NCBI GenBank assembly: GCA_045534775.1
Contig: JAZSKI010000024.1
Coordinates: forward strand, 17,066 to 49,065
From: Clostridia bacterium
Lineage (GTDB): Bacteria; Bacillota; Clostridia; RUG12999
Direction of reading: 5' to 3'
DNA: 32,000 nt
Below the pieces are notes generated by a model. That model saw only the letters and a list, made by a program, of their open reading frames with translations. It did not search any database and was not told the DNA's origin. The number at the start of each line of letters is the position of its first letter. Positions within the stretch are counted from its first letter, which is position 1. A program made the translations under genes and the position numbers. Shown one piece after another: positions 10,925-14,536 of the stretch.

Positions 10925-12754
10925 TTATTTATATTTTGCTTTCAAGCGAAGGGTATTATCGAGAATACGTTTTCTGATTCTGATATTTTCGGGTGTTACC
11001 TCCAGAAGCTCGTCCTCGGCTATAAATTCTATAGCCTCTTCAAGGCTCATTCTTTTTGGCGGTATCAGTCTCAAAGCTTCGTCACTTCCCGACGCGCGCG
11101 TATTGGTAAGCTGTTTTTTCTTACAGACATTAACGGCTATATCCTCCTGCTTGGGAGACATACCTATTACCATGCCTTCATATACGGGAACGCCGGCACC
11201 GATAAACAGCGTACCTCTGCCCTGGGCATTATAGAGCCCGTAGGTTATGGATTCCCCGCTTTCAAAGGCTATAAGCGAGCCTGTAAGCCTGCTTGTAATC
11301 TCGCCCTTGAAGGGTCTGTAATCATAGAATACGGAATTTAAAATTCCTTCGCCTCTTGTGTCTGTCAGAAACTCGTTTCTGTAACCCAGCAAGCCTCTTG
11401 TGGGAATAATATATTCTATTCTCATACGGTTGCCCACAGGTGACATCTGCACAAGCTCTGCCTTACGGATACCCATTTTCTCCATTACGCTTCCCACCGC
11501 TTCTTCGGGGACATCTATAAGCAGGCGTTCCATAGGCTCGCATTTTTCGCCGTCTATCTCTTTAAACAGCACCCTCGGCGTGCTGACTGCAAATTCATAG
11601 CCCTCACGTCTCATAGTCTCAATTAAAATCGAAAGGTGCATTTCTCCTCTTCCCGACACCTTGAAGCAATCGGTGGTTTCGCCTTCTTCAACCCTCAGCG
11701 AGACATCCTTAAGAAGCTCTTTGAAAAGTCTGTCGTGGAGCTGTCTTGAGGTTACGAATTTTCCTTCCTTTCCCGCAAAGGGGCTGTCGTTTACCTGGAA
11801 GGTCATCTCAAGAGTCGGTTCGCTGATTTTAACAAAGGGCAGAGCCTCCGGATTTGTAACCGCCGTTACCGTATCGCCGATGGTTATGTTTTCAATACCC
11901 GAGAAGCATACTATATCGCCTACCTTAGCCGTCTCTACAGGCACACGATTCAGCCCGTCTATCTGGAACATCTTTACTATCTTACTGCGGTAAGGCTCTT
12001 TTTCGCCGTGGTAGTTACAAACACTCACTTCCGTATTCTGTTTCATCACACCCCGTTCTATTCTGCCGATGGCAATTCTGCCTACATAATCGTTATAGTC
12101 AATAGAAGATACAAGCACCTGCAAATCACCCGTTTCATCACCCTCGGGTGCAGGTATGTAATCTACTATGGTATCAAAAAGCACCTTCATATCCCCACCG
12201 GGTACTCCGGGGTCTTTGGTGGCAATTCCTGCCCTTGCAGAGCAGTATATAAAAGGAGAATCAAGCTGCTTTTCTGTTGCATCCAGCTCCAGAAGAAGCT
12301 CTAAAACCTCGTCCTCCACCTCACCCAGTCTCGCATCAGGTCTGTCGGTTTTATTTACCACTATGATAATTCTGTGACCCAGCTCCAGGGCTTTTTGAAG
12401 TACAAATCTTGTCTGCGGCATAGGGCCTTCCGCCGCATCTACCACCAGAAGCACGCCGTTTACCATTTTCAGCACACGTTCAACCTCGCCGCCGAAATCG
12501 GCGTGTCCCGGTGTATCTATTATATTTATCTTAACATCCTTATAATGGGCGGCGGTGTTTTTTGCGAGAATGGTAATTCCTCTCTCCCTCTCAAGTGCCC
12601 CGTTATCCATAACTCTGTCCTGTACCACCTGGTTTTCCCTGTAAACTCCACCCTGCTTCAAAAGCTCGTCCACAAGAGTGGTTTTTCCATGGTCAACATG
12701 GGCTATAATTGCAATATTTCTTAAGTCTGTCCTCTTCAAATTCAAAATCTCCAA
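10925..12754 (-). CDS. typA: Translational GTPase TypA/BipA
   Basis: AHVDHGKTT (G1), DTPGHADF (G3), NKTD (G4), and an EF-G-like domain order with a BipA C-terminal domain. The ORF track starts at TTG 12754. TTG 12739 ([12 protein letters not shown]...) has GGAG 9 nt upstream and may be the real start. Confidence 0.95.
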
Positions 12755-12813
12755 TCGTTATGATACATTTGTCGGAACGCTTAAAACTGCACATATACAT
12801 ACGTCCCCCTTAT

Positions 12814-12842
12814 ATTATACTACATTCACATCAAATAATCAA
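12814..12842 (-). promoter_or_regulatory. Sigma-A type promoter for typA
   Basis: On the minus strand, TTGATT (12842-12837), a 17-nt spacer, then TATAAT (12819-12814), about 55-70 nt upstream of the typA start. Confidence 0.5.
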
Positions 12843-12873
12843 GTAAATGTCTGATTTTTTTTAATTTATTTTT

Positions 12874-12905
12874 AAAAAAATTCCCCCTTCGGCCGAGAGG
12901 CAAGG
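12874..12905 (-). terminator. Putative intrinsic terminator of the orphan minus-strand transcript
   Basis: GC-rich hairpin CCTT(CG)GCC / GGCAAGG (12886-12905, GAGA/UCUC tetraloop). On the minus strand it is followed by GGGAA and a run of seven U (complement of A7 at 12874-12880). The U-run is offset 5 nt from the stem, so strength is uncertain. Confidence 0.4.
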
Positions 12906-13011
12906 CAAGCATCAAGGTTCTCCAAAATATAGAAATCTTTGATTTCGTTATTTTTTGTAAGGTTCTTATATTTTTACTTCGTAAAATCAATAAGCTTTTC
13001 GCTATTGCTTA

Positions 13012-13130
13012 AAGCTTGATATAATATGAATTCTCGTCACATCAGCGGCATATCAGGTGTACCGGCACATATCGGGTCATTTATGGCATATCGAGAATTC
13101 GTCAGAATTCATATTGACGTTTTCAAGCTT
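13012..13130. repeat. 119-bp imperfect inverted repeat (long hairpin) enclosing three direct GGCA(CA)TATC repeats
   Basis: Left arm AAGCTTGATATAATATGAATTCTCG (13012-13036). Right arm CGAGAATTC-GTCA-GAATTCATATT-GACGTTT-TCAAGCTT (13092-13130). The 8-bp and 10-bp blocks are perfectly complementary. The centre carries GGCATATC (13047-54), GGCACATATC (13064-73) and GGCATATC (13085-92). Confidence 0.75.
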
Positions 13131-13141
13131 CACTTGGAATC

Positions 13142-13170
13142 ATTATATATTGCTTACCCTTATTTGTCAA
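13142..13170 (-). promoter_or_regulatory. Perfect-consensus sigma-A promoter with no annotated gene (orphan; candidate sRNA or distal typA leader)
   Basis: On the minus strand, TTGACA (13170-13165), a 17-nt spacer, then TATAAT (13147-13142). The first downstream CDS on that strand is typA, about 380 nt away, which also has its own promoter. Confidence 0.55.
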
Positions 13171-13235
13171 CACTTTTATATACAATTCATAGCCTTTTTC
13201 GTTAACTTTTTTATTTCACAAAGCAGAAAACATTA

Positions 13236-13264
13236 TTGACATTCAATTTTTACTGTGCTAGAAT
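13236..13264 (+). promoter_or_regulatory. Sigma-A promoter of the aroF leader
   Basis: TTGACA (13236-41), a 17-nt spacer, then TAGAAT (13259-64) with an extended -10 TG (13256-57). It lies about 255 nt upstream of the aroF ATG. Confidence 0.6.
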
Positions 13265-13298
13265 GAAGTCGACAGAAAAATGAAAGGATATGAATACG

Positions 13299-13433
13299 AT
13301 GGCTGCTATGGCAAAATGTTTTTCAAAAGTTAACAGCTTTTATTATTTTCCGAGCTTTTATTATTTTAGAGCTTGGGCTTTTTGTCGTGGAAAAATTCAA
13401 TATGCCGTGAGTAATTCATGTACTGATTTTTAA
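13299..13433 (+). CDS. Putative aromatic-rich leader peptide (44 aa) of a DAHP synthase attenuator
   Basis: Below the 60-aa cutoff of the ORF track; hand translated. The product is MAAMAKCFSKVNSFYYFPSFYYFRAWAFCRGKIQYAVSNSCTDF with stop TAA at 13431-33. Ten of the 15 codons in 13338-13382 are Phe/Tyr/Trp. AAAGGA (13283-88) lies 10 nt upstream. There is also an in-frame ATG at 13290. Confidence 0.45.
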   Translation: MAAMAKCFSKVNSFYYFPSFYYFRAWAFCRGKIQYAVSNSCTDF

Positions 13434-13465
13434 TGTACATTATATTTTAAAAATTGTTTATTTTT

Positions 13466-13496
13466 AAAAGCACTCATGGACGCATGAGTGCTTTTT
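13466..13496 (+). terminator. Intrinsic terminator (attenuator) in the aroF leader
   Basis: Perfect 9-bp stem GCACTCATG (13470-78) / CATGAGTGC (13483-91) with loop GACG. It is preceded by AAAA and followed by TTTTT (13492-96). It ends 9 nt before the aroF AGGAGG RBS (13505-10). Confidence 0.75.
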
Positions 13497-13519
13497 GAGT
13501 TTTCAGGAGGAGATTTGAA

Positions 13520-14536
13520 ATGATTATTATTGTAAAACAAAACGCTACAGACCAGCAGCTGCAGCCCTTATGGGATAAGCTTAACATTCCCGGTATCAGT
13601 ATTCAGGACGTGTCGGGTCATAATACCAGAATTTTTGGTATTGTGGGTGATACCTCCAAAATCGACATCAGCAACATCCAGTCTGAGGAAGCTGTTGAGA
13701 GAATAACGAGAGTTCAGGAGCCTTATAAGAAGGCTAACAGAAAGTTCCATCCCGAGGACAGCATATATAACATTGCCGGAAAGCTGGTTGGCGGGGATAA
13801 GCTTTCCATTATAGCAGGTCCTTGTTCGGTAGAAACAGAGGAGCAGATAATTGAAATCGCAAAGGCTGTAAAAGCGGCAGGTGCTTCCTTCCTTCGCGGA
13901 GGTGCTTTTAAGCCCCGTACATCTCCCTATTCCTTCCAGGGCTTGCATGAAGAGGGGCTTCGTATGCTCGCCGCCGCAAAAGAGGCTACGGGTCTGCCCA
14001 TTGTAACGGAGCTGATGGCGGCTTCTCATATTGACGCTTTTGAAAAATACGGTGTTGACGTTATTCAGATAGGTGCGAGAAACGTACAGAACTTTGAGCT
14101 TTTGAAGGAGTTGGGTCATCTGAATAAGCCTATACTTTTAAAACGCGGTCTTTCCAGCACCCTAGAGGAATTTTTAATGTCCGCCGAATATATTATGGCA
14201 GGCGGTAACGAACGTGTTATCCTCTGTGAACGCGGTATCAGAACATACGAATCCTACACCAGAAACACTCTGGATTTAAGTGCCGTACCCGCTCTGAAGC
14301 GTATGAGTCATTTGCCCGTAATTATCGACCCGTCCCACGCCGCAGGCTTAAGCTGGATGGTTGAACCTCTTGCCAAAGCCGCTGTTGCGGTAGGCGCTGA
14401 CGGTGTTATGGTCGAGGTGCATAATAATCCGCAGAAGGCTCTTTGTGACGGTGCCCAGTCCATCACCCCCGAAGCCTTTGAAACCCTGATAACAAAGCTC
14501 CGTGTAATAGCCGCCATTGAAAACAAAAGCATATAG
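13520..14536 (+). CDS. aroF: 3-deoxy-7-phosphoheptulonate (DAHP) synthase, type I-beta with an N-terminal ACT/ferredoxin-like regulatory domain
   Basis: 338 aa. The KDO8P/DAHP I-beta core has GPCSVE, KPRTSPYSFQG, the GARN..N motif and IIDPSH. About 70 extra N-terminal residues (MIIIVKQNAT...RIFGIVGD...VERITRVQEPYK) resemble the Thermotoga-type regulatory domain. Strong RBS. Confidence 0.93.
   Translation: MIIIVKQNATDQQLQPLWDKLNIPGISIQDVSGHNTRIFGIVGDTSKIDISNIQSEEAVERITRVQEPYKKANRKFHPEDSIYNIAGKLVGGDKLSIIAGPCSVETEEQIIEIAKAVKAAGASFLRGGAFKPRTSPYSFQGLHEEGLRMLAAAKEATGLPIVTELMAASHIDAFEKYGVDVIQIGARNVQNFELLKELGHLNKPILLKRGLSSTLEEFLMSAEYIMAGGNERVILCERGIRTYESYTRNTLDLSAVPALKRMSHLPVIIDPSHAAGLSWMVEPLAKAAVAVGADGVMVEVHNNPQKALCDGAQSITPEAFETLITKLRVIAAIENKSI

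What the first reader, a model, noticed from the sequence alone, without database searches (positions are those of the whole stretch)
13236..13519. Candidate ribosome-mediated Phe/Tyr/Trp attenuator (FYYF-FYYF-W-F leader ORF plus terminator) upstream of DAHP synthase
The layout, read directly from the sequence, is as follows. A near-consensus promoter (TTGACA-17-TGcTAGAAT, 13236-64) starts a leader of about 250 nt. The leader contains a 44-codon ORF (13299..13433) encoding MAAMAKCFSKVNSFYYFPSFYYFRAWAFCRGKIQYAVSNSCTDF. Ten of the 15 consecutive codons at 13338-13382 are Phe, Tyr or Trp. That stretch is built from a tandem 15-nt direct repeat, AGCTTTTATTATTTT, at 13335-49 and 13353-67. A perfect 9-bp stem followed by U5 (13470-96) comes 37 nt after the ORF stop and ends 9 nt before the aroF RBS. 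The controlled gene encodes the first committed enzyme of Phe/Tyr/Trp synthesis, so the three residues enriched in the ORF are exactly its end products. CGTGAGT (13406-12) can pair with the terminator 5' arm ACTCATG (13472-78) with one G-U, which gives a possible antiterminator. The octamer GCTTTTTG occurs both at the end of the aromatic run (13377-84) and at the terminator 3' side (13490-97). This is the classic pheL/trpL logic known mainly from Proteobacteria. In Firmicutes, aro and trp genes are normally controlled by T-boxes or TRAP, and I find no T-box core here. Caveats: the SD is weak (AAAGGA 10 nt upstream), AT-rich DNA inflates TTT/TAT codons, and a second short frame (13280..13333, MKGYEYDGCYGKMFFKS) is also aromatic-rich. 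The 15-nt direct repeats could instead be a protein-binding site.
Basis: partly seen in the sequence, partly recalled or inferred. Interest (0 to 1): 0.75.

Follow-up and report, generated by a model that had tools for sequence, protein, structure and literature searches.

The report
Phe/Tyr leader-peptide attenuator before aroF
The stretch in front of the DAHP synthase gene is very probably a switch of a well-known type that raises expression of the first aromatic amino-acid gene when ribosomes stall for lack of phenylalanine or tyrosine, and it belongs to a widespread, unannotated family in Clostridia and relatives.

Summary
On this window alone the evidence is weak, because similar aromatic-rich stretches occur about 3-7 times in the 32 kb. 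Comparison with other genomes settles it.

- All six available relatives with 67-90% identical aroF keep the ORF, the terminator and the antiterminator; one 68% relative has no leader.
- All 40 codons of the two aromatic blocks in five relatives stay Phe or Tyr.
- A 1-nt indel shifts the frame downstream but leaves the RNA motif GCCRTGAGT intact.
- Among 81 aroF loci from Bacillota and a few other lineages, 49 have an ATG-started ORF with at least 7 of 12 aromatic codons just upstream. The reverse strand and two flanking control regions have none, and shuffles predict 0.9.
- All 55 such ORFs (at a threshold of 6) are followed by a terminator, and 50 of 55 have a Shine-Dalgarno motif.
- Each terminator arm pairs best with its own ORF tail.

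No Rfam, T-box, Pfam or NCBIfam model matches. The closest precedents are the predicted uORFC-13-1 motif of Acholeplasma and the aroR-aroF leader of Corynebacterium glutamicum. Verdict: real, a new member of a known kind, moderately interesting.

The parts
13236..13264 (+). Leader promoter: -35 TTGACA, 17-nt spacer, extended -10 TGcTAGAAT. The inferred transcription start is near 13271.
   Evidence: 11 of 12 consensus positions plus TG. TTGAC and TGTGnTAnAnT are invariant in the five-way alignment. No other + strand promoter-like site lies between 13265 and 13519.
13283..13288 (+). Shine-Dalgarno-like AAAGGA of the leader ORF, 10 nt before the ATG at 13299.
   Evidence: Sequence. Relatives have stronger motifs (AAGGTGA, AGGAG) 6-10 nt before a conserved ATGGCA. 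50 of 55 family leaders have such a motif, against 11% of control ATGs.
13299..13433 (+). Leader ORF of 44 codons plus stop: MAAMAKCFSKVNSFYYFPSFYYFRAWAFCRGKIQYAVSNSCTDF.
   Evidence: Conserved in L081, L082, L083/L085, L086, L110 and L113. Peptide alignment A3.
13288..13316 (+). Segment 1: the start-codon region and first codons. This is the 5' strand of the long-range helix P1 and of the proposed anti-antiterminator. AUAUGAAU, AUGGC and CUAUGGCAAAA pair with 13414-21, 13404-08 and 13380-90.
   Evidence: The same layout is seen in L082, L083 and L086, and only weakly (4 bp) in L081. In L113 I read a different pair of sequences from the L113 sequence (UGAAACUCA with UGAGUUUCA), not folded or scored by any tool. 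Family-wide enrichment: 17 of 55 at p<=0.05.
13338..13349 (+). Aromatic block 1: TTT TAT TAT TTT (F Y Y F).
   Evidence: In five relatives only TTT, TTC, TAT or TAC occur at these codons.
13350..13376 (+). Hairpin P2: CCGAGCUUU (13350-58) pairs with AGAGCUUGG (13368-76). Its 5' arm and loop together carry aromatic block 2, TTT TAT TAT TTT at 13356-67. The Trp codon 13374-76 is part of the 3' strand.
   Evidence: Conserved as CCRAGCUU(U) with (A)AGCUKGG in relatives. UGG is replaced by GGG in L081 and L082.
13380..13390 (+). 3' strand of P1 (UUUUGUCGUGG), codons F-C-R. It includes the last aromatic codon, TTT at 13380-82.
   Evidence: Comparing the helix sequences printed, one position differs on both strands between the window (AUGGCAAAA with UUUUGUCGU) and L086 (AUGACGAAA with UUUCGUCGU).
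13405..13412 (+). Segment 2: the antiterminator 5' strand CCGUGAGU, inside the invariant motif AATATGCCRTGAGT.
   Evidence: The motif is kept at the nucleotide level even where a 1-nt indel changes the reading frame (L086).
13466..13504 (+). Intrinsic terminator: 13-bp stem 13466-78 with 13483-95, GACG loop, and a U-rich tail (TTTTTGAGTTTT). Its 5' arm 13472-79 is segment 3, which pairs with segment 2.
   Evidence: -18.4 kcal/mol. Conserved in all relatives. All 55 family leaders have a terminator 20-80 nt after the ORF stop.
13506..14536 (+). RBS (AGGAGGAG) and coding sequence (13520-14536) of aroF, a type I-beta DAHP synthase with the ferredoxin-like regulatory domain. This is the controlled gene, and it stands alone here rather than in an operon.

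Best explanation
This is a ribosome-mediated (leader-peptide) transcription attenuator that sets read-through into aroF according to the supply of charged tRNA-Phe and tRNA-Tyr.

Shown from sequence and comparison: a sigma-70-type promoter starts a leader of about 250 nt. The leader contains a translatable 44-codon ORF with two F-Y-Y-F blocks, and a strong intrinsic terminator lies 24 nt before the aroF start codon. No promoter-like site lies in between. The RNA offers three competing pairings:
- segment 1 (ribosome-binding site, start codon and first codons, 13288-13316) with the region after the aromatic blocks (13380-13421), which includes segment 2;
- segment 2 (CCGUGAGU, 13405-12) with segment 3 (ACUCAUGG, 13472-79), which is the antiterminator;
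- segment 3 with segment 4, which is the terminator.

Inferred mechanism: when Phe and Tyr are plentiful, the ribosome follows RNA polymerase through the ORF. It is on or just past segment 2 while segment 3 emerges, so the terminator forms and transcription stops. If the leader is not translated at all, segment 1 holds segment 2 and the terminator again forms. When charged tRNA-Phe or tRNA-Tyr is scarce, the ribosome stalls in the aromatic blocks. These lie in the loop enclosed by segments 1 and 2 and end at least 24 nt before segment 2. The stalled ribosome, and any ribosomes queued on the start region, keep segments 1 and 2 apart. Segment 2 then pairs with segment 3 as it is made, the terminator cannot form, and aroF is transcribed. 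Hairpin P2 around block 2 may act as a pause site, but this is speculative. The enzyme's ferredoxin-like domain is the Phe/Tyr feedback domain of Thermotoga-type DAHP synthases (my recollection of the literature), so RNA-level and allosteric control would sense the same two amino acids.
For: Anatomy.

Conservation in close relatives:
- Loci L081, L082, L083/L085, L086, L110 and L113 (aroF 67-90% identical) keep the promoter, SD, ORF, P1, P2, antiterminator and terminator.
- All 40 block codons in five relatives are TTT, TTC, TAT or TAC.
- L086 has a 1-nt deletion that shifts the frame after the blocks, yet AATATGCCATGAGT is kept. In L083 and L086 the stop codon falls within or right after segment 2.

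Family level:
- 49 of 81 aroF loci have an ATG-started ORF with at least 7 of 12 aromatic codons within 400 nt upstream. The reverse strand has 0, shuffles predict 0.9, and two control regions of the same loci have 0.
- 55 of 55 leaders have a terminator 20-80 nt after the stop.
- 50 of 55 have an SD-like motif, against 11% of control ATGs.
- The antiterminator strand lies in the last ~15-18 codons of the ORF or within ~25 nt after its stop codon, and differs by lineage in step with the terminator arm: ATGAGT with ACTCAT, AAGGAT with GTCCTT, CWGGRGC with GCTCC.
- Each locus pairs better with its own terminator arm than with unrelated arms: Wilcoxon p = 4e-6 over 55 loci and 3e-4 over 20 independent arm clusters. 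The window ranks at 0.07.
- Complementarity between the start region and segment 2 is enriched: 17 of 55 at p<=0.05 against 2.75 expected.

Folding with a masked ribosome footprint, on the transcript truncated before the 3' arm: the antiterminator forms for stalls in block 2 and at F13380. Seven to eight of its 8 pairs form at P = 13359 and 13377, and it is favoured by 1.3-3.6 kcal/mol at most of these positions.

No competing RNA class matches.
Against: - There are no expression data of any kind.
- Equilibrium folding discriminates only modestly. Without a ribosome the antiterminator and the state with segment 3 free are nearly equal in energy (-0.3 kcal/mol). Stalls in block 1 or at P = 13371 give little shift.
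- A ribosome parked on this window's stop codon would thermodynamically favour the antiterminator by 4.3 kcal/mol, because the stop lies 18 nt after segment 2. The repressed state therefore has to be explained by timing or steric hindrance in this clade, unlike in L083 and L086.
- The full-length leader always folds into the terminator.
- The antiterminator is short (8 bp with one G-U, -11.3 kcal/mol) compared with the terminator (-18.4 kcal/mol).
- The window's SD is weak (AAAGGA, 10-nt spacing).
- The window's own test for pairing between segment 1 and segment 2 is not significant (z = -1.1).
- Within the window alone, aromatic-rich stop-free stretches are not rare.
- About a third of aroF loci lack a detectable leader ORF. 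L112 has no leader at all, and L014 has a T-box instead.
Confidence: 0.8

Rival explanations
1. The RNA switch is real, but it is operated by a trans-acting factor rather than by translation. A protein or small molecule would bind the U-rich repeated units or the P1/P2 domain, and the ORF would be incidental to a U/A-rich motif.
For: The P1/P2 domain is a conserved structure. The leader folds far better than its shuffles (z = -5.2). Conserved residues outside the aromatic blocks track RNA pairing rather than peptide function. Outside the blocks, substitutions show no third-position bias.
Against: In 55 loci the aromatic run is always in frame with an ATG, and in 50 of them an SD-like motif precedes it. 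Block codons vary only among TTT, TTC, TAT and TAC. The nucleotide sequences of the blocks differ widely across lineages while their aromatic coding is kept. No known riboswitch, T-box or protein-binding leader matches. There are no TRAP-like GAG/UAG repeats.
Confidence: 0.07
2. The ORF encodes a functional small aromatic or hydrophobic protein with its own promoter and terminator. It would be an independent mini-gene that merely sits upstream of aroF.
For: Some copies are already called as genes and deposited as 'hypothetical protein'. The peptide pattern aligns across lineages.
Against: ORF length ranges from 19 to 70 codons. A frameshift changes the C-terminus in L086 while the RNA motif is kept. 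The ORF is consistently linked to aroF and to a terminator that leaves no room or signal for a separate aroF promoter (24 nt here). No Pfam or NCBIfam family matches. The ORF tail pairs with the terminator arm in a lineage-specific way.
Confidence: 0.04
3. The leader peptide acts as an arrest peptide that senses free Phe or Tyr in the ribosome exit tunnel, as TnaC does for Trp, rather than sensing charged tRNA through hungry codons.
For: The peptide is unusually long and patterned for a hungry-codon leader. It has two aromatic blocks, with conserved Pro-Ser or Gly spacers and S-A-G and C-x-K positions.
Against: The conserved non-aromatic positions coincide with the strands of P1 and P2 and change together with their pairing partners. 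For a biosynthetic gene the logic requires induction on starvation, and hungry codons provide this directly. No residue is invariant across the family.
Confidence: 0.05
4. The combination in this window arose by chance: a T-rich leader that happens to read as Phe and Tyr, next to an ordinary terminator.
For: Within the window, comparable aromatic stretches occur 3-7 times in six frames. Another one lies in the same intergenic region at 12939-13019.
Against: The element is conserved in relatives down to 67% aroF identity. At the family level 49 of 81 loci carry such an ORF, against about 0-1 in every control.
Confidence: 0.02

Closest known systems
uORFC-13-1 motif (Brewer et al. 2021, RNA Biol, PMC8632094)
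   Same: It is a predicted upstream ORF located exclusively before aroF (DAHP synthase). It has -35/-10 elements, an RBS and start codon, U-runs encoding Phe, an adjacent intrinsic terminator and an additional base-paired substructure, and was proposed to work by Phe-dependent translation speed. An Acholeplasmataceae locus in my set (L047) carries a leader of the same pattern as the window's family.
   Different: It was reported only from Acholeplasma and unassigned environmental sequences (24 representatives), and only Phe was noted. It has no Rfam model, so membership could not be tested. The window comes from a Clostridia-like genome. Its family is Phe plus Tyr rich and spans Clostridium, Sedimentibacter, Acetobacterium, Sporomusa/Pelosinus, Oscillospiraceae, Lachnospiraceae and Treponemataceae MAGs.
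aroR-aroF leader peptide attenuator of Corynebacterium glutamicum (Neshat et al. 2014, as summarised in PMC11802643)
   Same: A leader peptide with aromatic residues (Phe-Tyr-Phe) lies upstream of the DAHP synthase operon. Transcription rises when ribosomes stall at Phe/Tyr codons under Phe limitation. The controlled step and the logic are the same.
   Different: It is from Actinobacteria and has a short F-Y-F motif rather than two blocks of four. No sequence relationship was shown or expected, so it is probably an independent invention. It has experimental support, whereas this element has none.
E. coli pheL-pheA, pheM-pheST and trpL attenuators (Rfam Phe_leader, Trp_leader)
   Same: The four-segment logic is the same: leader ORF with regulatory codons, anti-antiterminator, antiterminator and terminator, coupled to translation.
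   Different: No Rfam leader model matches, even at E<=10. Here the regulatory codons sit in the loop between segments 1 and 2. Segment 1 is the leader's own ribosome-binding and start region rather than the sequence under the stalled ribosome. The ORF is 2-3 times longer, and it senses two amino acids.
Leader-peptide attenuators already predicted or shown in Firmicutes: His leaders in the B. cereus group, Peptostreptococcaceae and Erysipelotrichales (PMC9413887); the leucine-rich ilv-leu attenuator peptide of S. aureus (PMC5794164)
   Same: They are in the same phylum and use the same mechanism class. They show that T-boxes are not the only amino-acid-sensing leaders in Firmicutes.
   Different: They concern different amino acids and operons and are unrelated in sequence.
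T-box leaders upstream of aromatic biosynthesis genes
   Same: They occupy the same position and do the same job. One locus in the comparison set (L014, Hathewaya proteolytica) has a T-box directly before aroF.
   Different: The window and its relatives have no T-box match at the gathering or E-value threshold. Sensing here would be through the ribosome, not through direct tRNA binding.

Membership tests
Ribosome-mediated leader-peptide transcription attenuator (trpL/pheL class) | A short translatable ORF with an RBS in the 5' leader of a biosynthetic gene | tested here: met
   ORF 13299-13433 with AAAGGA 10 nt upstream. The ATGGCA start and stronger SD motifs are conserved in relatives. 50 of 55 family leaders have an SD-like motif, against 11% of control ATGs.
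Ribosome-mediated leader-peptide transcription attenuator (trpL/pheL class) | A run of codons for the end product(s) of the controlled pathway, kept by selection | tested here: met
   10 of 15 codons are aromatic. All 40 block codons in five relatives are Phe or Tyr. 49 of 81 loci carry such an ORF, against 0-0.9 in controls. Trp is not conserved.
Ribosome-mediated leader-peptide transcription attenuator (trpL/pheL class) | An intrinsic terminator between the leader ORF and the structural gene, with no promoter in between | tested here: met
   A 13-bp stem plus U-tract at 13466-13504, 24 nt before the aroF ATG, with no + strand promoter-like site after 13264. 55 of 55 family leaders have one.
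Ribosome-mediated leader-peptide transcription attenuator (trpL/pheL class) | An antiterminator pairing that excludes the terminator and is placed so that a translating ribosome controls it | tested here: met
   CCGUGAGU 13405-12 pairs with ACUCAUGG 13472-79. It is conserved, with G-U changing to G-C or A-U in relatives (sequences). In the family this strand lies in the ORF tail or over the stop codon. It is specific for its own terminator arm (p = 4e-6 and 3e-4).
Ribosome-mediated leader-peptide transcription attenuator (trpL/pheL class) | An anti-antiterminator (segment 1 with segment 2) that gives termination by default | tested here: inconclusive
   The start region pairs with the segment-2 region in the folds of the window, L082, L083 and L086. 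In L113 I read a different pair of sequences from the sequence itself, unscored. Family-wide enrichment is 17 of 55 at p<=0.05. The window itself gives only z = -1.1, and its energy difference without a ribosome is only -0.3 kcal/mol.
Ribosome-mediated leader-peptide transcription attenuator (trpL/pheL class) | Read-through rises when the cognate charged tRNA is limiting | not testable with these tools
   This needs Term-seq or Northern blots, reporters or in vitro coupled transcription-translation.
Curated Rfam amino-acid leader families (Phe_leader, Trp_leader, His_leader, Thr_leader, Leu_leader, Leu/phe leader) | A match to the family covariance model | tested here: not met
   cmscan of 12700-13600 at E<=10 returned only terminator-like fragments of unrelated sRNA models. 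Nothing reached the gathering threshold in the window, and nothing matched the relatives' leaders.
T-box leader (RF00230) | Stem I, specifier loop and T-box core matching the covariance model | tested here: not met
   No hit in the window or in L082, L086, L110 and L113. The model does find true T-boxes in the comparison loci L014 and L017.
uORFC-13-1 motif (PMC8632094) | A uORF with RBS and start codon and Phe-coding U-runs, immediately upstream of a terminator, exclusively before aroF | tested here: met
   The descriptive features from the paper are all present here.
uORFC-13-1 motif (PMC8632094) | Sequence and structure homology to the published consensus or alignment | not testable with these tools
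   There is no Rfam model. The held supplement does not contain the alignment. The only indirect link is that an Acholeplasmataceae locus (L047) aligns with the family at the peptide-pattern level.

The most novel reading that the evidence does not exclude
The window element is one member of a large leader-peptide attenuator family that is largely undescribed. The only published trace I found is 24 Acholeplasma and environmental representatives. This family, rather than the T-box, would be the predominant RNA-level regulator of type I-beta DAHP synthase across Clostridia, Negativicutes and neighbouring lineages. It would also have a distinctive build: two Phe/Tyr blocks held in the loop of a long-range helix whose 5' strand is the leader's own ribosome-binding and start region, so that translation initiation, elongation speed and termination are all read out by a single RNA switch.
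Probability: 0.5. Interest if true: 0.6.

Novelty: new member of a known kind. Interest (0 to 1): 0.45.

Why it matters
- It gives a concrete, testable regulatory mechanism for entry into the shikimate pathway in an uncultured Clostridia-like organism.
- It shows that classical ribosome-mediated attenuation is a common way of controlling aromatic amino-acid synthesis in Bacillota, and not restricted to Proteobacteria. In this set only 1 of 18 leaderless loci scanned had a T-box directly before aroF.
- The family has no Rfam, NCBIfam or Pfam model, and its peptides are deposited as 'hypothetical protein'. A model would improve annotation of hundreds of genomes and prevent spurious small-protein calls.
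- For engineering acetogens and clostridia to produce aromatic compounds, deleting this leader is an obvious way to deregulate the pathway.

Tried and rejected
- Exact-protein look-up of the window's aroF and of its 100% identical database entry found no contig, and the cluster look-up gave no names. The source organism therefore stays unidentified beyond 'Clostridia-like'.
- A metagenome pattern scan for AGCTTTT-N30-45-AATATGCCRTGAGT found again only the contig already held as L086. The other 21 hits were unrelated coding sequence.
- MAFFT alignment of the five close leaders misplaces the 5' strand of P1 by one codon. I did not run the count of structure pairs on it, and instead compared the helices fold by fold.
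- I did not build a covariance model. The lineages differ too much in sequence for a seed of five, and choosing segment 2 by its pairing would have made pair counts circular. I used a cross-locus permutation test instead.
- Single-locus duplex tests against shuffles are weak for the AT-rich Clostridium leaders.
- Equilibrium folding of the full leader, with or without ribosome masks, always returns the terminator. Only truncated transcripts are informative. In one search the row 'P=13404 on seg2' is invalid, because forcing the pairs overrode the mask.
- The 15-nt direct repeat as a protein operator: rejected, because the two units are not conserved as nucleotides in relatives.
- The alternative frame at 13280: rejected, because the ATG at that position is not conserved in the relatives (alignment).
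Full report
**1. The observation**

- The promoter TTGACA-17-TGcTAGAAT at 13236-64 matches 11 of 12 consensus positions plus the TG extension.
- The ORF 13299-13433 encodes MAAMAKCFSKVNSFYYFPSFYYFRAWAFCRGKIQYAVSNSCTDF. Codons 13338-13382 hold 10 aromatic residues out of 15.
- The 15-nt unit AGCTTTTATTATTTT occurs twice, at 100% identity.
- The terminator is a 9-bp G+C core that extends to a perfect 13-bp stem (13466-78 with 13483-95), followed by a U-tract, at -18.4 kcal/mol.
- It ends 24 nt before the start of a type I-beta DAHP synthase that carries the N-terminal ferredoxin-like regulatory domain.
- The 251-nt leader folds far better than its shuffles (z = -5.2).

Taken alone, the aromatic run is not very unusual. 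Stop-free 12-codon stretches with at least 7 aromatic residues occur 7 times in the six frames of the window, and stretches with at least 8 occur 3 times.

**2. Known RNA classes**

Rfam at gathering thresholds finds only a partial tRNA at the window's end. A permissive scan of 12700-13600 (E<=10) returns only fragments of unrelated sRNA models that align to the terminator hairpin. There is no T-box and no curated amino-acid leader. The same holds for four related leaders.

**3. Close relatives**

The species-representative genome collection holds no aroF above 67% identity. The protein database holds entries at 90, 88, 75, 70, 68 and 67% identity, and I fetched their contigs.

- Six of the seven lineages fetched carry a homologous leader. 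The seventh, L112, has only an 80-nt spacer and no leader. A further contig, L087, is cut 105 nt upstream of aroF and is uninformative.
- The promoter (TTGAC, TGTGnTAnAnT), the start ATGGCA, the two aromatic blocks, the motif AATATGCCRTGAGT and the terminator are all conserved.
- In the eight block codons of five sequences, all 40 codons are TTT, TTC, TAT or TAC.
- L086 has a 1-nt deletion after the blocks. It changes the frame and the C-terminus but leaves GCCATGAGT intact. In L083 and L086 the stop codon lies within or immediately after that motif. So the blocks are constrained as codons and the tail is constrained as RNA.
- The Trp codon of the window is GGG in L081 and L082. It sits in the 3' strand of hairpin P2, pairing with the Pro codon, so Trp sensing is not supported.
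- L113 has a TTG start and the peptide MKLNNFAAKFNSFYYFPANFYWFSAGYFCCKKRIFNEF... It bridges the window's clade and the Clostridium-type leaders.

**4. The wider family**

I scanned 81 aroF loci from Clostridium, Sedimentibacter, Acetobacterium, Sporomusa/Pelosinus, Oscillospiraceae, Lachnospiraceae, and Treponemataceae and Acholeplasmataceae MAGs, together with the close relatives and the window itself.

| Test | Result | Control |
|---|---|---|
| ATG-started ORF with >=7 aromatic residues in 12 codons, within 400 nt upstream | 49 of 81 | 0 on the reverse strand; 0.9 expected from dinucleotide shuffles |
| Same test in the -850..-450 region and in a region downstream of aroF | 0 and 0 | control regions of the same loci |
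| Terminator 20-80 nt after the stop (leaders at threshold 6) | 55 of 55 | none run |
| SD-like motif before an in-frame ATG | 50 of 55 | 11% of other ATGs |

- Overall composition of the leader peptides is Phe 14%, Tyr 12.5% and Trp 2%, and a Trp is present in only 31 of 55.
- The peptides share a layout: a basic N-terminus, aromatic block 1, a spacer of 2-4 residues, aromatic block 2, then S-A-G-[YF]-[FL]-x-C-x-K. No residue is invariant.
- The conserved non-aromatic positions coincide with the strands of P1 and P2.

**5. Alternative structures**

The close relatives show the same layout in their folds, most clearly the window, L082, L083 and L086.
- P1 is a long-range helix between the first codons and the codons just after block 2.
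- P2 is a hairpin around block 2.
- The start-codon region pairs with the 5' half of the conserved tail motif (AUGGCA(U) with (A)UGCCAU).
- The tail motif pairs with the terminator's 5' arm, which is the antiterminator.
- The terminator follows.

Comparing the helix sequences printed, P1 differs on both strands at one position between the window and L086. Reading the L113 sequence, the start-region-to-tail pairing appears to use different sequences there (UGAAACUCA with UGAGUUUCA). This is my own reading and no tool scored it.

Across the family the segment that pairs best with the terminator's 5' arm lies in the last ~15-18 codons of the ORF or within ~25 nt after its stop codon, and differs by lineage along with the arm. 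In a cross-locus permutation test with double-centred energies, each locus prefers its own arm over unrelated arms. Wilcoxon p is 4e-6 for 55 loci and 3e-4 for 20 independent arm clusters, and the window ranks at 0.07. Complementarity between the start region and the tail is also enriched (17 of 55 at p<=0.05 against 2.75 expected).

**6. Mechanism**

I inferred the mechanism from folds of the window transcript truncated before the terminator's 3' arm.
- With a 30-nt ribosome footprint masked, the 8-bp antiterminator forms for stalls in block 2 and at F13380. It is favoured there by 1.3-3.6 kcal/mol at most positions.
- Without a ribosome the two states are nearly equal in energy (-0.3 kcal/mol). 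Order of synthesis would then favour the segment 1 to segment 2 pairing and hence termination.
- One weak point remains. A ribosome resting on this window's stop codon, 18 nt beyond segment 2, does not cover segment 2 and thermodynamically favours the antiterminator (-4.3 kcal/mol).
- Repression when amino acids are plentiful must therefore rest on timing, with the ribosome on segment 2 while segment 3 emerges, or on steric hindrance. In L083 and L086 the stop codon is placed as in the classical design.
- The full-length leader always folds into the terminator, as expected for a kinetically controlled switch.
- No + strand promoter-like site lies between 13265 and 13519, so aroF expression has to pass through the terminator.

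**7. Comparison with what is known**

- Ribosome-mediated attenuation at end-product codons is textbook (trpL, pheL).
- For DAHP synthase specifically, C. glutamicum has the aroR leader peptide (F-Y-F), which responds to Phe limitation.
- The Breaker laboratory described a predicted uORF motif, uORFC-13-1, exclusively upstream of aroF in Acholeplasma and unassigned environmental sequences (24 representatives). Its descriptive features fit this element, and an Acholeplasmataceae locus in my set has the family pattern. The published alignment is not available to me.
- Leader-peptide attenuators are also known or predicted in Firmicutes for His and for Ile/Leu/Val.
- I found no paper in the held library describing the Clostridia-wide Phe/Tyr family. 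[quoted passage not shown]
- The leader peptides match no NCBIfam or Pfam model. Where they were called as genes, they are named 'hypothetical protein'.
- Of 18 loci without a detectable aromatic ORF that I scanned with Rfam, only one has a T-box directly before aroF.

**8. Verdict**

The mechanism class is known and a predicted precedent exists for the same gene, so I rate it a new member of a known kind. The added value is the evidence that it belongs to a widespread, unannotated family with a recognisable architecture. Interest is moderate (0.45). I put the confidence in the attenuator explanation at 0.8. What is missing is any expression data.

Noticed in passing
L082:2790-2990 and L086:1800-2000: In two relatives an extra stretch of about 190-200 nt lies between the leader terminator and the aroF RBS. 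It ends in a G+C-rich hairpin followed by GGAATGGAG. No Rfam family matches it. It could be a second regulatory element or an insertion.
   Followed up: partly
window:13023-13115: A perfect 12-nt inverted repeat, AATATGAATTCT with AGAATTCATATT, encloses 69 nt that contain three or four GGCA(C)ATATC-like units. The shorter bipA-aroF spacer of relative L081 (430 nt against 765 nt) leaves little room for this element. It may be a small inserted palindromic element.
   Followed up: partly
window:12884-13170 (minus strand): A perfect 12 of 12 sigma-70 promoter match on the minus strand (13170-13142) points towards bipA/typA, whose coding sequence starts at 12754. A terminator-like hairpin at 12900-12884 and a second promoter-like site at 12842-12814 follow. 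This suggests a minus-strand transcript or leader of about 250 nt. Its fold is not distinctive (z = -1.6).
   Followed up: partly
window:12939-13019: A second T-rich short ORF (MISLFFVRFLYFYFVKSISFSLLLKA) with 7 of 12 aromatic codons lies in the same intergenic region. It has no terminator or gene context, and I treat it as a chance-level match. It shows why the single-sequence evidence was weak.
   Followed up: no
L014:2667-2931: Hathewaya proteolytica has a T-box leader (108.5 bits) directly upstream of aroF instead of an aromatic leader ORF. The same gene family therefore uses different RNA sensors in different lineages.
   Followed up: no
window:13520-15450, compared with L083-L087, L112: In the window (and, from its gene table, L081 and L082) aroF stands alone and is followed by unrelated genes; in L081 the next gene is a TnpV-like one. 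In the 68-75% relatives aroF is followed directly by aroB and aroA. In the window's clade the leader therefore controls only the first pathway step.
   Followed up: no
window:31960-32000: A tRNA gene is cut off by the end of the window (Rfam tRNA, 30.1 bits).
   Followed up: no
L086:1621-1737 and database proteins P0121-P0139: Gene callers have already called several of these leader ORFs as proteins. They are deposited as 'hypothetical protein' in Clostridium, Pelosinus and Sporomusa ovata records. This is an annotation gap that a leader-peptide model would close.
   Followed up: yes
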